NCBI GenBank assembly: GCA_020137815.1 | Contig: CM035351.1 | Coordinates: 6,014,001 to 6,078,000, forward strand | Direction of reading: 5' to 3' | From: Hormiphora californensis | Taxonomy: Eukaryota; Animalia; Ctenophora | DNA length: 64,000 bases | Shown: piece after piece, positions 20,100 through 54,484 of the stretch | How positions within the stretch are numbered: position 1 is the first letter of the stretch | Layout of the letters: each line of letters starts with the position of its first letter | Notes under the pieces: model-generated | What the model was told of the DNA's origin: nothing | The model's database searches: none | The model's input: only the letters and a program-made list of their open reading frames with translations | Translations under genes and position numbers: made by a program

Positions 20100-21178
20100 G
20101 CAATATTCAATTGATACCAGGGGGTTTGTCAAACTTCCCGTTTGCCCGTTGTCGGTCTCTGCTGCCGTTTAATACTTGCCAAACTTGGAATTTCAAGTTT
20201 TGACATTTTCGCGATCGAGATTTTCAAAATGTTCGCCAAAAATGGGGAAATGGGAGTGCGCGGCGCGGTTTTTCGATTTGCGCGTTACAAAAATCTGCCG
20301 CGCGCGCAGCATTTTTGGAATTCGGAAATTTTTGGAATTCGGGAATTTTAAAATCCGAGTTGCGCCAAAAAAATTTGAAAAGCGCTGCCTTATAGGGATC
20401 CCTAATAAAGTTGTGACTTGTCACTGTAGTCTTGCGGAGGCGCGGTTGTGACTTGTCACCGCGTGTGCGCGTACCAAAACGCACGTGGTTTCCACTGCGC
20501 GTAGCTGCGGCGCGGCGTAAACCATGCGGTGACAAGTTACAATCGCGCATTTTGAAGCCGCGCCGCCACGGGAACCACATGTTTGGTGACAAGTCACAAC
20601 TTTATTAGGGATCCCTATCCCGCCGGCAACGTTTGCCAACAAAAAAAAATCGTCAAAAAACATATTTTAAATTTTTGTCTCCTTTTCCACTTATTTTGCA
20701 TTTTTGCGCTCAACTGGACGAGGTCAGGTCACGTCCCTGTTGTGGGAGGTCATGGGAAACAGGTCAAGTCATGGAGTTTGTTGAACGTTTCGGGGTTTTG
20801 TCCCTTCTTCAGCTCAAATTTGTTTGTTTAAAGTAGTGTTGACAGTTGAAAAATGACCTCCCACACACAGGACGTGTCCTCATCCCTTCCGAGTTTCCAG
20901 ATCGTCTGCCTTTACCACAATTTAAAATTCTTTCGTTGAAGATGAGTTAGGGCTGTCCGTTAGGATCTGGTTGGCCGGTAAAGTCCATTTTTATTCTACT
21001 GTTCACCCCTCAACTCGTGCGTGTGCGATATTTTAATTTACGCTGCGTGCGCTACACGTTAACATGTGATAAACGCGCAAAACAATTCCGCGCACGACTT
21101 TGGGGGGTGAACAGTTGAAACAAAATGGAGTATAAGAGCTAAGAAGCACTAGCGCCGCTAACCTATGAAATATTTTAG
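20100..21178. promoter_or_regulatory. Putative divergent promoter region between SSH (-) and the + strand gene cluster
   Basis: The only head-to-head intergenic interval next to the cluster. CpG/GCGC-rich. Ends at acceptor ttttag (21177-78) before the first ATG. Confidence 0.4.
20393..20617. mobile_element. MITE-like inverted repeat element
   Basis: TIRs tagggatccctaataaagttgtgacttgtcac / gtgacaagtcacaactttattagggatcccta. Confidence 0.75.
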
Positions 21179-21180
21179 AC

Positions 21181-21639
21181 ATGTCACTGCTCCCTCTGAT
21201 TGGTGCTATCAGAGGGTGTTCGAGGGCTATTTCAGCATTTACCCAACCCGGCAAGCTCCTTCAACCCCACCGATCAGTGCATGTAACCCACGAACCGAAG
21301 AAGAAGTGTGATCACTGCTACTACGCTGTCGACCATAGAACTGACACTAAGTTTGTGCTCTGCTCTGCAAATCCTGCCCACAAGCAAGCCAAAAGGAATA
21401 ATGTGGAATTCCGACTAAAGCAAAGGTTCTACTACATGGGGCTACGAGATCTTGGTGCCACTCCAAAGATGATTAACGCACGGGTAAACGATGTTGGGTA
21501 TGCTAACTTTACAAAGCAACGTAAACGCGTGGGTAACCGTGGAATCTTGAGAAATAATCATGTGTTCGATGGATTAAAACAATTCGCCGAGGAAACTCGT
21601 AGCTTACAACCAAAACCTGGACAATTACCTTCAAAGTGA
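21181..21639 (+). CDS. MRPL36: Mitochondrial ribosomal protein bL36m with C-terminal extension
   Basis: Presequence-like N-terminus followed by the L36 zinc ribbon PKKKCDHCYYAVDHRTDTKFVLCSANPAHKQ (CxxC...C...H). Single exon. Confidence 0.75.
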   Translation: MSLLPLIGAIRGCSRAISAFTQPGKLLQPHRSVHVTHEPKKKCDHCYYAVDHRTDTKFVLCSANPAHKQAKRNNVEFRLKQRFYYMGLRDLGATPKMINARVNDVGYANFTKQRKRVGNRGILRNNHVFDGLKQFAEETRSLQPKPGQLPSK

Positions 21640-21762
21640 ACCAAGTTGATAATATGTTCTGTTTATTGTCTGAGTTTACTGTAAAAACCCCATTGGTATA
21701 TTTCTTGTTTTCATCCCAAAATCCACTGCAACTATGTTTTTTAACCTACTCCTCTATGTAGT

Positions 21763-50963: not shown

Positions 50964-50984
50964 TTAACCTATCCTTAGTCAGAT

Positions 50985-52587
50985 ATGCCAATAGGAAGAG
51001 GCCGAGCTCGACCAGCAGCAGCTGATTCCCGGCCTCCCGGTGCTGACTCCAATCCTCAACCTCTCTTTAACGAAACGCCGCCATCCCGTCCACCGATAGC
51101 AACACCCACTCTTCCACAACCCCAAGTCGTCAGAGAACCCCAGAAACCAGTCGAACAGTCATCGGACATAGACGAAACTTTATATGAAGCCGTTTTTGAG
51201 GCAGACAGGTCTGAGTCATGGATAGGTGATTGGGCTTTAAAATGTATGAAACAATCGTATGGTAATAGAGAGAGATGTAAAAAGCTGATAAGTGTCATGA
51301 CTCGGTTGGACGGGAGTAATAACCAACATAAACAGGTATCCAAAAAGTTACTGCATACCTAGATGATGTGGTATTTCTTCCACATCCCCTATTTAATTGA
51401 ACTGTTCGTACTGTCTATGAACTCCCCAGAGGCAGGGAATTCACTGCCCGTTTCACCTCCGATAAACAATTAAAATCGCCCCCTTAGATTCTCAAGATAT
51501 TCATGAACCTATTGAGTGGGGAGTGCAAGAGGTTGGTCTATGATGGTGTAAACAGCAATACTGCAACCGATGTTGCTAACTTTACTTACCTTTTAGCTCA
51601 GGTAAATGTTATTGAATCTCACAATAATAGGCCAGGGCCCAAGGGTTATACCGTATATTGGTAAACACTCACTTCTCTCTCAGTTGATTTTTACAACATT
51701 TTAAAACTTTTTAAACTCCATTTGTAAACTATAATTCCCCTAGACGGCAATGTATGTGAAGACGTTCTCGGGGAAACCAATTTACAAGCTATCAGATACA
51801 GTCCTAGAAAAGTTGTGTTCAATAAGTCAGCCTGGCCTTCCCTCACAGGTACATCATCACTCTTCAATTCCTTCAACTTTTTAACAAGTTCTTTTTAGTA
51901 TGTATGATAAAAAACACATACCCCTCTGCCCTTTGATTACAAACTGAAATAACGGTAGTTTTGAGTTTGTATAAACTGCTCACCGGCTAGTCCGTGCTAG
52001 GGCACTGTTTTGATCTCGGCCCAATGGACATGATCTATTCATGAAACTCGCTATCTCTCTCATCAGGTGTATGAGCTTGTTTATGCTACACTTCTGGAGT
52101 TTACCCAATTTGAGGAATACCTGTCTCTTGCTGGAAACGATATGTCTGGTCTGGCGGTACTGTACAACAACATCAGAAACATAGTCATAGCGGATGTTCC
52201 GGTAAAGGGGGTGAGAGATAGATAGAAAGAGACGGAGAGTTAGAATAGCGATAGAGAGGAGAGAGGAGGATCCCATAGCATACTTTGGAAACTTTTGGAA
52301 TTTTCAACTTTCTTTCAAAGTATTCCAAAGTATTCCAAAGTATACCAAAGTATACCATGGGAGCCCCCCCCCCCCCGAAGCTGAAGAGATAGATAGTGAT
52401 AGAAAGAGAGAGAGAGAGAGAGAGAAAGGAGAAGACAGATCTTCATTATAGACACCTGACACTTCCTTTTCAGCACACTGATGTTAGGATTCCTATGTTG
52501 GAGCTGTTAGAGCGAAAAGCATACGGGGAGAAGTTGCCAGAGTCTGTGAAAGCATTTTACGCACCATATTCCCCTATAATGGCCTGA
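50985..52587 (+). CDS. MIF4G domain-containing protein (MIF4GD/SLIP1/CTIF-like), multi-exon
   Basis: Helical repeats (IFMNLLSGECKR, VYELVYATLL) and C-terminal VRIPMLELLERKAYGEKLPESVKAFY, resembling the MIF4GD/CTIF end motif. Exons 50985-51335, 51488-51601, probably 51684-51849, 52068-52201 and 52474-52587. Confidence 0.6.
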
Positions 52588-52957
52588 TGAGGACAGATAT
52601 AATTTGTTGCTGTGAGACACTGAAATAGTGGTCAAAGTAGTGTTTTTACTATATTGTTCCGGGCCCCGGTATTAGATTAATGTCTGATCGCACTGTCCAT
52701 ATTGAAGTGAGAATAATATTTTCTTGCTGCTCCTGCTGTAATAAATAACCCGCTCTCTATATATTTTCATATAACCAGAGAAACTGAGACAAAGTGAATG
52801 ACATTTTAATATACAAATCATATTTAATCAATTTTATTTAATGTTCATTATTCAGTTGTTTCTTTACTCCTGTGACATTGATAAGGCGATCGAATAAACT
52901 CGCTAAATCCAATTTGAAAGCAGGCATAAACAGTTTTCTGACCAAAGCTTTAGCACC

Positions 52958-54484
52958 ATGGCAGATGAAACATCTCCTGGGGAGGAGAACTCTGCAGCCA
53001 GAGCAGCCCACAGACTCTCCACAGCTAAGGTAACGATCGATATTGCCTTGTTTGAACAAAACAAGTTCGATCTACCAGAACTATGATAACTTCTACACCC
53101 CCTCCCTAGCTCGCGAAAAGGGGGTCGAGGTAATAATATTGTAAAGGAGGGTCAGAACATAACACTCCCTCCTACATCTCAGTATATCGAGGCACAGCGG
53201 GCCATGTCAGAAATGCAGTCTGAGTGTCCCAGTAGTGGTGGAGGTGGTGGTGAAATTCCCCCTGAGTGTCCCATGCACCAGAGCAACAACGACCAGAAGT
53301 TGGATGGGGACAACATGATGCCTCCCCCTAACCAGAGGCCTGCATTTGATCAGCCCTTCCCTCTTGACCAAGGCAGGGAAACAAGTTCCATACCTCGTCA
53401 TGGCACGGGTTAGTTTGGCAATGACCCAACTCCTTATCCTTTATTTTATCTACTGCTCTTTTCTACTTCCCCCATCTTCTATATCCCCACCCCCTCCAAC
53501 CCTCTCCCACTTCATCCCACTCAAACCCCCACTCAGGTAAGAACTGGGTGTACCCGAGTGAACAAATGTTCTGGAATGCTATGACCCGGAAAGGGTGGAA
53601 CTGGAGAGATGAAAAGGAGGATGTCACCCCTCAATCCATCTCAGAGATCATCAAAATTCATAATTTTAACAACGAGAAGGCCTGGCATGAGGTATAGTGT
53701 TGTCTTACAAGAACTGTTTAATTATTTTTGGCAGTGAAATTGCAGTGAAATTGCAGTGAAGTGTATTTCAGATAGCCCAAAATCTTTTAACTGAATCAAT
53801 TTACATCATTCATCCCTTTGTCATGTACATCGTCGATACCCAGCACACCCTACCCAACATGGTTGTGAAACCTGACAGATATCACCTTCTATATTCCGAT
53901 CCATGGCTGCCATCACTTTATCCTTCCCCCATTTCAGATTCTCCTGTGGGAGAAATTCTACGACGAGGAGTGTGGGGATCCTCAGTTGGTGAAATTCCAA
54001 GGTCGACCCAAGGATATGTCACCAAAAGCACGCTTTCTGACAACCTTCAAATCGTGGCCAAAACCCTTTGACAGACACGACTGGATTGTTAACCGGTGTG
54101 GCACTGAGGTAAAACTTCCTCTTTCATTTCTTTCAGGATACTTTAAACTTTTCAAAAATTTATTGCTTCGTTTGAGGTTTCGTTCGCCTTTTCCAACACT
54201 ATTCCTCCGTCCTCGAATACCCCCTCTTATCCTATCCCCTCCTATATCAGGTGCGATACATCCTTGATTACTATGATGTCGGTTTTGAGAACAGTGACGA
54301 CTCTGTTCTGATCGATGTTCGACCTGCCATTGATTCATTCTCTGCAATGAAAGATCGATTCAAGGTGTTCATGTTACGAAATGCCCCCACAGTTGCCACA
54401 TTCCTATTTGAATACCCCATGATACCAAAAGGAATGGACCCTGTCGAGGTTTCACGAACTGAGGGAAACGATAACCATTCGTAG
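52958..54484 (+). CDS. HCCS: Holocytochrome c synthase (5 exons)
   Basis: CP heme motifs (ECPS, ECPM), [72 protein letters not shown]. Confidence 0.97.

What the first reader, a model, noticed from the sequence alone, without database searches (positions are those of the whole stretch)
21170..52960. Every cluster gene has a 3' splice acceptor 0-15 nt before its ATG
Seen: ttttag|acATG (21181), tatgtag|tATG (21763), ttgtagcag|aaATG (24563), tttacag|ggactccgATG (25927), ttcctcag|aATG (29533), cattttag|15nt-ATG (30538), tattag|ctgcaatcATG (32018), ttctag|cATG (34828), ctcctag|tatcATG (35921), ctaacactttcag|ATG (38777), cttctag|12nt-ATG (40432), ccttagtcag|atATG (50985), ctttag|caccATG (52958). 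Most have pyrimidine tracts like those of the cis introns. Inference: these are trans-splice sites, with the leader supplying nearly the whole 5' UTR. The DMRT exon shows the same pattern (ttgtag|gaaaaaaccATG).
Basis: partly seen in the sequence, partly recalled or inferred. Interest (0 to 1): 0.8.

Follow-up and report, generated by a model that had tools for sequence, protein, structure and literature searches.

The report
Comb-jelly gene cluster with spliced leaders
Thirteen same-strand genes of a comb jelly each start just behind a splice-acceptor-like AG, and RNA shows the already known comb-jelly spliced leader joined at one of them; the tight packing likely means that part of the cluster is transcribed as an operon, which is not yet shown.

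Summary
All 13 start codons have a YAG 0-15 nt upstream, against 26-44% of control ATGs. Nine of 13 score like this genome's own intron acceptors; four are weak. The window is from a ctenophore. An oligo-dT RNA contig begins with 20 letters of the published Hormiphora spliced leader, joined exactly at the AG before 29533. A second contig fits the same joint before 21181. The other 11 sites are inferred. Leader trans-splicing in ctenophores is already published, and short leader-to-ATG distances are ordinary: 55 of 110 leader-capped contigs have 15 nt or less. The open question is the operon. Seven of 12 stop-to-ATG spacers are 87-232 nt and lack a usable donor. A downstream gene carries the leader. 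Three neighbours appear linked in a distant ctenophore but not in lobates. No RNA contig bridged two genes and promoters were not testable. I found no ctenophore operon in the paper library, but I recall such a claim in a 2014 genome paper that I could not open. The scan noted similar acceptor-before-ATG clusters in other animals' DNA.

The parts
21177..21639 (+). Gene 1, mitochondrial-type ribosomal protein L36-like (ATG 21181); acceptor AG 21177-21178; first gene of the cluster
   Evidence: Pfam L36 below cut-off; RNA contig 21172-21436 fits a leader joint here; matrix score weak, -4.9
21760..24330 (+). Gene 2, DEAD-box helicase (DDX56-like, name recalled; ATG 21763); acceptor AG 21760-21761
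   Evidence: Pfam Helicase_C, DEAD; score 3.3, best AG of its spacer; one cis joint in RNA
24556..25723 (+). Gene 3, translin (ATG 24563); tandem candidate AGs 24556-24557 and 24559-24560
   Evidence: Pfam Translin; weak score, -0.4; two cis joints in RNA
25917..29397 (+). Gene 4, PHF14-like, intronless (ATG 25927); acceptor AG 25917-25918
   Evidence: Pfam PHD families; named homologues; score 8.7
29530..30450 (+). Gene 5, SRFBP1/BUD22-like, intronless (ATG 29533); acceptor AG 29530-29531 with the spliced leader seen joined in RNA
   Evidence: Run X3 record 18, 29530-29663, no other letters, 20 loose 5' letters equal to the published leader's 3' part; score 13.1; start agrees with the 84%-identical P0001
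30521..31515 (+). Gene 6, DUF4097 protein (FAM185-like, name recalled; ATG 30538); acceptor AG 30521-30522, 72 nt behind the previous stop codon
   Evidence: Pfam DUF4097; score 6.6; homologue N-termini of similar length
32008..34662 (+). Gene 7, histone deacetylase (HDAC8-like, name recalled; ATG 32018); acceptor AG 32008-32009
   Evidence: Pfam Hist_deacetyl; score 3.6; one cis joint in RNA
34825..35713 (+). Gene 8, Muted/BLOC1S5-like (ATG 34828); acceptor AG 34825-34826
   Evidence: Pfam Muted below cut-off; score 4.8, but two stronger AGs lie 79 and 90 nt upstream; one cis joint in RNA
35915..37166 (+). Gene 9, possibly PEX3-like (ATG 35921); acceptor AG 35915-35916
   Evidence: Name recalled; Pfam Peroxin-3 only at E 0.43; score 8.7
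38775..39886 (+). Gene 10, U2AF small subunit (ATG 38777); AG directly abuts the ATG
   Evidence: PDB U2AF23/35 hits; score 5.4; two cis joints in RNA
40418..48480 (+). Gene 11, CHTF18 (ATG 40432); candidate AG 40418-40419
   Evidence: PDB CHTF18 hits; weak score, -1.9; better AGs 92 and 118 nt upstream
50981..52587 (+). Gene 12, unknown 227-aa protein (ATG 50985); acceptor AG 50981-50982; follows a 2.5-kb gap, so likely the start of a second unit
   Evidence: Start confirmed by a homologue with the same N-terminus; score 6.0; no RNA laid here
52952..54484 (+). Gene 13, cytochrome c heme lyase (ATG 52958); candidate AG 52952-52953
   Evidence: Pfam Cyto_heme_lyase; weakest site, -8.1; no RNA laid here
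445..456 (-).
   Evidence: Sequence present, 9 nt apart; weak score, -4.8; the 21-aa piece gave no Pfam hit, so the name is untested
20813..20854 (-). Degenerate genomic copy of the leader exon, opposite strand, not followed by GT; cannot be the cis source of the leader on gene 5
   Evidence: Only match in the window, 2 mismatches in 22; alignment to a leader-RNA-gene-like locus
20101..21100 (.). CpG-rich stretch upstream of gene 1, candidate promoter region of the cluster (inferred)
   Evidence: CpG profile; no functional test

Best explanation
The AGs are spliced-leader trans-splice acceptors of a ctenophore: RNA shows the leader joined at the AG of gene 5, it is likely joined at gene 1, and it is inferred for the rest, and the tightly packed genes are likely transcribed as one or a few polycistronic precursors. 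Steps: (1) RNA polymerase II likely starts in the CpG-rich DNA upstream of 21181 (inferred). (2) It would run through several head-to-tail genes (inferred from spacing). (3) Each upstream mRNA would be cleaved and polyadenylated roughly 80-170 nt or less before the next acceptor (weakly suggested by RNA contig ends). (4) The spliceosome joins the leader exon of a separate leader RNA to the unpaired AG (joint shown for gene 5; the donor RNA gene was not seen in this genome). (5) The mRNA thereby gains a cap and about 44 nt of 5' UTR, with only 0-15 nt of its own before the ATG (leader length from the paper). The gap at 48481-50982 likely separates an 11-gene block from a 2-gene block.
For: Leader joined at 29530-29531 in RNA, with no same-strand copy of it in the window. 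The gene-1 contig starts at the predicted base with the predicted single mismatch. 13 of 13 YAG and 9 of 13 intron-grade sites against 1-4% of control ATGs. Branch-like YTAAC in 7 of 13 against 37 of 441 non-coding YAGs, with G-poor tracts. In 7 of 12 spacers the best donor is weaker than the weakest of 42 cis donors; one spacer (72 nt) is shorter than the shortest intron, 85 nt. Stop-to-ATG spacers of 87-232 nt in 7 of 12 junctions. RNA pieces reach to 77-166 nt before the next acceptor at five junctions. Homologues of genes 4, 5 and 6 each have a record on a contig of 28,328 nt in a distant relative.
Against: Only one joint is seen letter by letter. Loose 5' ends of 11-15 letters also occur mid-exon in these runs, probably adapters, so the gene-1 case rests on position. 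Four of 13 sites score below 0 bits, and in 5 of 13 a better AG lies further upstream. Five spacers and the region before gene 1 hold donor-like GTs of 6.6-8.5 bits. No listed contig bridges two genes. In Bolinopsis and Mnemiopsis the orthologues examined lie on sequences of different length, so the linkage is not kept there. Five spacers are 370-2504 nt and could hold promoters.
Confidence: 0.62

Rival explanations
1. The AGs are trans-splice acceptors, but each gene has its own promoter and a short outron; the cluster is only a compact stretch of separately transcribed housekeeping genes.
For: Leader addition is near-universal in ctenophores (at least 56% of Iso-Seq reads, PMC8527503 passages), so a leader on gene 5 does not by itself prove co-transcription. 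No bridging contig. Linkage is broken in lobates.
Against: 72-230 nt between stop and acceptor must hold a 3' UTR, a promoter and an outron. RNA pieces occupy much of several spacers. Short spacers are CpG-poor, unlike the DNA before genes 1 and 12. Thirteen genes lie on one strand.
Confidence: 0.3
2. Most of the AGs end ordinary 5' UTR introns, spliced in cis from short upstream exons; only some genes get the leader directly.
For: Donor-like GTs exist 201-1559 nt upstream of genes 1, 7, 10, 11, 12 and 13. Donors inside the upstream coding sequences were not scanned.
Against: Seven spacers have no donor as good as the weakest cis donor. The one joint read directly is to the leader. No cis joint into a start-proximal AG was listed.
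Confidence: 0.06
3. The pattern is chance or a translation-start context, and the 5' UTRs run unspliced through the AGs.
For: A YAG within 15 nt precedes 26-44% of any ATG, and four sites are weak.
Against: 13 of 13 was never reached in 20,000 shuffles; intron-like tracts and branch-like motifs are enriched; the leader is seen in RNA.
Confidence: 0.02

Closest known systems
Spliced-leader trans-splicing of ctenophores (Hormiphora californensis, PMC8527503, passages read; Derelle et al. 2010 seen only as cited there)
   Same: The 22 leader letters at the joint are identical to the 3' end of the published leader; the joint lies at an AG just before the ATG.
   Different: That paper describes the leader and its genomic copies; the words operon and polycistron do not occur in its main text. 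Its supplements could not be read.
Leader-resolved operons without a dedicated SL2: Ciona, Oikopleura (PMC7986045 passages) and the chaetognath Paraspadella (PMC12460157 passages)
   Same: Same-strand housekeeping genes, spacers under 250 nt, a downstream gene carrying the leader.
   Different: Spacers here are longer than the 1-nt and 31-nt medians of the tunicates. An 11-gene block would exceed the nine-gene maximum given for the chaetognath, but only if the 502-, 545- and 1610-nt spacers are read through.
Hydra RFC140-flp bicistronic operon (PMC3273482 passages)
   Same: Non-bilaterian animal; the downstream gene depends on an unpaired AG in a short intergenic region.
   Different: Two genes and tested in transgenics; here up to 11 genes and no functional test.
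Caenorhabditis elegans SL2 operons (PMC7986045 passages)
   Same: About 100-nt distances between genes; poly(A) site to acceptor distances suggested here are of that order.
   Different: No sign here of a second, operon-specific leader; most spacers lack AATAAA (8 of 12).

Membership tests
Spliced-leader trans-splicing (ctenophore type) | mRNA 5' end carries a leader that is not encoded next to the gene | tested here: met
   Gene 5: 20 loose letters plus AG equal the published leader end; the only similar DNA in the window is a degenerate opposite-strand copy
Spliced-leader trans-splicing (ctenophore type) | Joint at a 3' splice AG that has no upstream cis donor | tested here: met
   Gene 5: joint at AG 29530-29531, 13.1 bits; best donor in its spacer 0.3 bits. 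Other genes inferred.
Spliced-leader trans-splicing (ctenophore type) | The same leader sits on many unrelated mRNAs | tested here: met
   113 of 121 loci have it within 30 nt of the contig end, ahead of unrelated ORFs; species of those contigs unknown and probably mixed
Spliced-leader trans-splicing (ctenophore type) | Leader donated by a leader-RNA gene with a GT donor | tested here: inconclusive
   No genome held. L088/L089 show the leader followed by GT and three predicted stem-loops, but are not tied to this species.
Spliced-leader trans-splicing (ctenophore type) | Hypermethylated cap and Y-branched intermediate | not testable with these tools
   Needs biochemistry
Leader-resolved eukaryotic operon | Same-strand genes with short intergenic distances | tested here: met
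   13 genes on one strand; 7 of 12 stop-to-ATG distances 87-232 nt, the other five 370-2504 nt
Leader-resolved eukaryotic operon | Downstream genes are trans-spliced | tested here: met
   Shown for one downstream gene, gene 5, 135 nt behind gene 4; not shown for the others
Leader-resolved eukaryotic operon | Polycistronic precursor RNA across the spacers | tested here: inconclusive
   No listed contig bridges two genes; coverage low, oligo-dT, tables cut
Leader-resolved eukaryotic operon | One upstream promoter, none before downstream genes | not testable with these tools
   Only a CpG profile is available
Nematode SL2-type operon | A dedicated leader for downstream genes | tested here: inconclusive
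   Downstream gene 5 carries the common leader end; first gene 1 fits the same last 7 letters only

The most novel reading that the evidence does not exclude
Genes 1-11 (21181-48480, about 27 kb) form one polycistronic transcription unit resolved by the common leader: a ctenophore operon longer than the nine-gene maximum reported for chaetognaths, which tolerates kilobase foldback elements in its spacers and holds a PHF14-SRFBP1-DUF4097 core old enough to be shared with a distant ctenophore lineage.
Probability: 0.33. Interest if true: 0.62.

Novelty: new member of a known kind. Interest (0 to 1): 0.36.

Why it matters
The finding as worded is the sequence footprint of a process already published for ctenophores, so it mainly helps annotation: 5' ends here are set by unpaired acceptors, and gene finders will mis-join them. 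The operon reading matters more. A 2021 methods paper states that operons had not been reported in ctenophores (PMC7986045). Ctenophores branch at or near the base of animals, so long leader-resolved operons there would add an independent case for asking whether trans-splicing drives operon formation. The cluster names exact junctions to test.

Tried and rejected
No whole genome is held, so genome-wide counts and a search for this species' leader-RNA gene were not possible. RNA runs held only 7-17% of the sampled words; stretches without cover are not evidence. None of the 121 leader-bearing loci matched a window gene: blastn hit only the degenerate leader copy, and tblastn of 110 ORFs gave one weak 28-residue hit. 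The idea that a 0-15 nt distance is special to this cluster was not accepted: half of leader-capped contigs share it, and 11 of the 13 sites are picked by proximity, not seen. The degenerate leader copy at 20813-20854 was rejected as a cis source or a working leader gene (wrong strand, no GT). The bacterial promoter scan is irrelevant here and gave chance levels. Atlas searches for genes 9 and 12 gave no usable hit; gene 9 had no real PDB hit. The minus-strand phosphatase gene (DSPc) has an uncertain start near 19324 and was not counted. The contig behind the 28,328-nt coincidence could not be read, so gene order there is unknown. Derelle 2010 and the 2014 Pleurobrachia genome paper are not held. 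No earlier notes exist for this genome.
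Full report
Origin and anatomy. The window is animal DNA with spliceosomal introns. The best named homologues of genes 4, 5 and 6 are ctenophore proteins (Bolinopsis microptera, Mnemiopsis leidyi) at 40-48% identity, and the RNA leader matches that of Hormiphora californensis. The species was not determined. From 21181 to 54484 I built 13 plus-strand gene models by hand; all translate without internal stops through 42 GT-AG introns of 85-2705 nt, median 156. Seven of these introns are seen as joints in RNA contigs. 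The genes are mostly housekeeping: L36-like, DEAD-box helicase, translin, PHF14-like, BUD22/SRFBP1, DUF4097, histone deacetylase, Muted-like, a possible PEX3, U2AF small subunit, CHTF18, an unknown protein and cytochrome c heme lyase. The names DDX56, FAM185, HDAC8 and PEX3 are recalled, not from a call. Start codons agree with homologues for genes 5, 6 and 12.

The observation. All 13 contexts are as written. A YAG within 15 nt precedes 13 of 13 starts, against 42% of 257 coding, 44% of 158 intronic, 26% of 95 intergenic and 41% of 480 minus-strand ATGs; ATGs within 18 nt behind a known acceptor or start were dropped from the plus-strand controls. In 20,000 shuffles of the 60 nt before each start the mean was 3.9 of 13 and the maximum 11. 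A matrix from the 42 cis acceptors gives 3 bits or more for 9 of 13 sites, 36 of 42 cis acceptors (leave-one-out) and 30 of 990 control ATGs. The sites share the G-poor tract of introns (1.9 G against 1.7 in cis acceptors and 6.4 in 441 non-coding YAGs), and 7 of 13 have a YTAAC motif against 37 of 441. Four sites are weak (21181, 24563, 40432, 52958), and in 5 of 13 genes a better AG lies further upstream. The DMRT-like exon has the stated sequence but a weak site, and its name was not confirmed.

RNA test. Four public runs, kept as contigs and holding 7-17% of the sampled words, were laid on 21000-40600, which covers 11 of the 13 starts. In oligo-dT run X3 a 154-nt contig matches 29530-29663 without a difference and carries 20 loose 5' letters. 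With the shared AG these equal the last 22 letters of the Hormiphora leader printed in PMC8527503 (passages). The window holds no same-strand copy of this leader, so the joint is in trans. In run X2 a 281-nt contig lies on 21172-21436 from its 17th letter with one other letter. A leader joined at AG 21177-21178 predicts a start at 21172 with one mismatch under three scoring schemes. The loose letters were not displayed, and loose ends of 11-15 letters also occur mid-exon in these runs, so this case is likely, not shown. The loose-end and piece tables were cut (138 and 188 rows hidden), so more joints may have been missed. No listed joint enters a start-proximal AG from a cis donor, and no listed contig spans two genes.

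Cis alternative. Cis donors score 4.7-12.4 bits. In the spacers before genes 2, 3, 4, 5, 6, 8 and 9 the best GT at least 60 nt upstream scores -5.3 to 4.1; before genes 7, 10, 11, 12 and 13, and in 1500 nt before gene 1, it scores 6.6-8.5. Gene 6's acceptor lies 72 nt behind the previous stop, less than the shortest intron. Donors inside upstream coding sequence were not scanned. So a 5' UTR intron is unlikely for seven genes and not excluded by sequence for six.

Is the short distance unusual? I dropped 8 with the leader more than 30 nt from the contig end and 3 without a usable ORF. Of the remaining 110, 55 have the main ATG within 15 nt, 68 within 20 and 91 within 50; the median is 16. The species are unknown and probably mixed, and none is a window gene. 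Short leader-to-ATG distances are therefore ordinary for this leader.

The operon question. Stop-to-ATG distances are 123, 232, 203, 135, 87, 502, 165, 207, 1610, 545, 2504 and 370 nt. The 1610-nt spacer falls to 295 nt without a foldback element, and the 502-nt spacer holds a small inverted-repeat element. RNA pieces lie behind the stops of genes 2, 6, 7, 8, 9 and 10 and end 166, 77, 109, 106, 107 and 484 nt before the next acceptor; contigs cannot show true ends, so this is a weak hint that little room is left for promoters. Eight of 12 spacers lack AATAAA, and CpG-rich windows occur before gene 1 and at 48701-49000 but not in the short spacers. Homologues of genes 4, 5 and 6 (P0171, P0013, P0024) each have a longest contig of 28,328 nt, the only length shared among the ctenophore-like hits; they are 38-50% identical to the window's proteins and 40-53% to the lobate ones. 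This suggests linkage in a distant lineage, but the DNA was not read. Against it, the Bolinopsis orthologues of genes 4 and 5 and the Mnemiopsis orthologues of genes 4 and 6 lie on sequences of different length. I put trans-splicing at most sites at about 0.9, co-transcription of at least the tightly spaced genes at about 0.65, and a single 11-gene unit at about 0.33.

What is known. PMC8527503 (passages) reports the leader on 56% of Iso-Seq reads and 718 genomic copies, cites Derelle 2010 for ctenophore trans-splicing, and never uses the words operon or polycistron in its main text; its supplements could not be read and may bear on this. PMC7986045 (passages) states that operons have not been reported in ctenophores. 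PMC12460157 (passages) gives chaetognath operons by a 250-bp rule, the longest with nine genes. PMC3273482 (passages) shows a Hydra operon. PMC10282587 (passages) and PMC6005172 (one passage) added nothing on ctenophore operons. Eight searches (listings seen) found no paper that describes a ctenophore operon. From memory, the 2014 Pleurobrachia genome paper claims widespread trans-splicing and operon-like gene clusters; it is not held, so this is recalled and unverified, and it lowers my novelty rating. Earlier notes of this scan describe similar acceptor-before-ATG clusters in other animals, mostly without RNA; none concerns this genome.

Verdict. It is a new instance of a known ctenophore process. 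The cluster is a good candidate for a long ctenophore operon, which remains to be shown. Interest 0.36.

Noticed in passing
window 20813-20854 (-), arms 20716-20753 and 20853-20890: Degenerate copy of the leader exon without a GT donor, between 38-nt imperfect inverted arms, in the region between the divergent phosphatase gene and the cluster. Possibly one of the many genomic leader copies reported for Hormiphora.
   Followed up: partly
window 37206-38520 and 49196-50968: Two copies (about 86% alike) of a foldback element with TTAA at both ends; a Kolobok-like type is a guess from memory. The second copy ends about 12 nt before gene 12's acceptor, and its TTAA end overlaps the branch-like motif of that site.
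   Followed up: partly
window 40839-40911 (-) and 41114-41186 (+): Two tRNA-Gly(TCC) genes on opposite strands inside intron 1 of CHTF18, with tandem partial copies beside them.
   Followed up: no
L088 and L089 (one 1945-nt contig): Two leader-RNA-gene-like copies 778 nt apart: leader exon, GT donor, three predicted stem-loops, folding z-score -3.9. Species unknown.
   Followed up: partly
L028, L039, L043, L065 (also L072, L082): The leader, without GT, sits 145-188 nt ahead of similar-looking ORFs with no Pfam match (L082 not scanned), in some cases with further sequence upstream. These may be retrotransposons copied from leader-capped RNA (inference).
   Followed up: partly
window about 11900-19324 (-): Multi-exon dual-specificity phosphatase gene (DSPc; slingshot-like from memory), divergent from the cluster; its best upstream AG lies 40 nt before the candidate ATG with ATGs in between.
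   Followed up: partly
window 42042-44746: The 2.7-kb CHTF18 intron appears to be a long inverted-repeat element with internal tandem repeats (read by eye).
   Followed up: no
window 38777-39886: The cluster includes the U2AF small subunit, the factor that recognises the acceptor AG, and its own AG directly abuts the ATG.
   Followed up: no
window 50985-52587: Gene 12 has only one relative among 1.84 billion representatives when searched with exon 1; it may be ctenophore-specific.
   Followed up: partly
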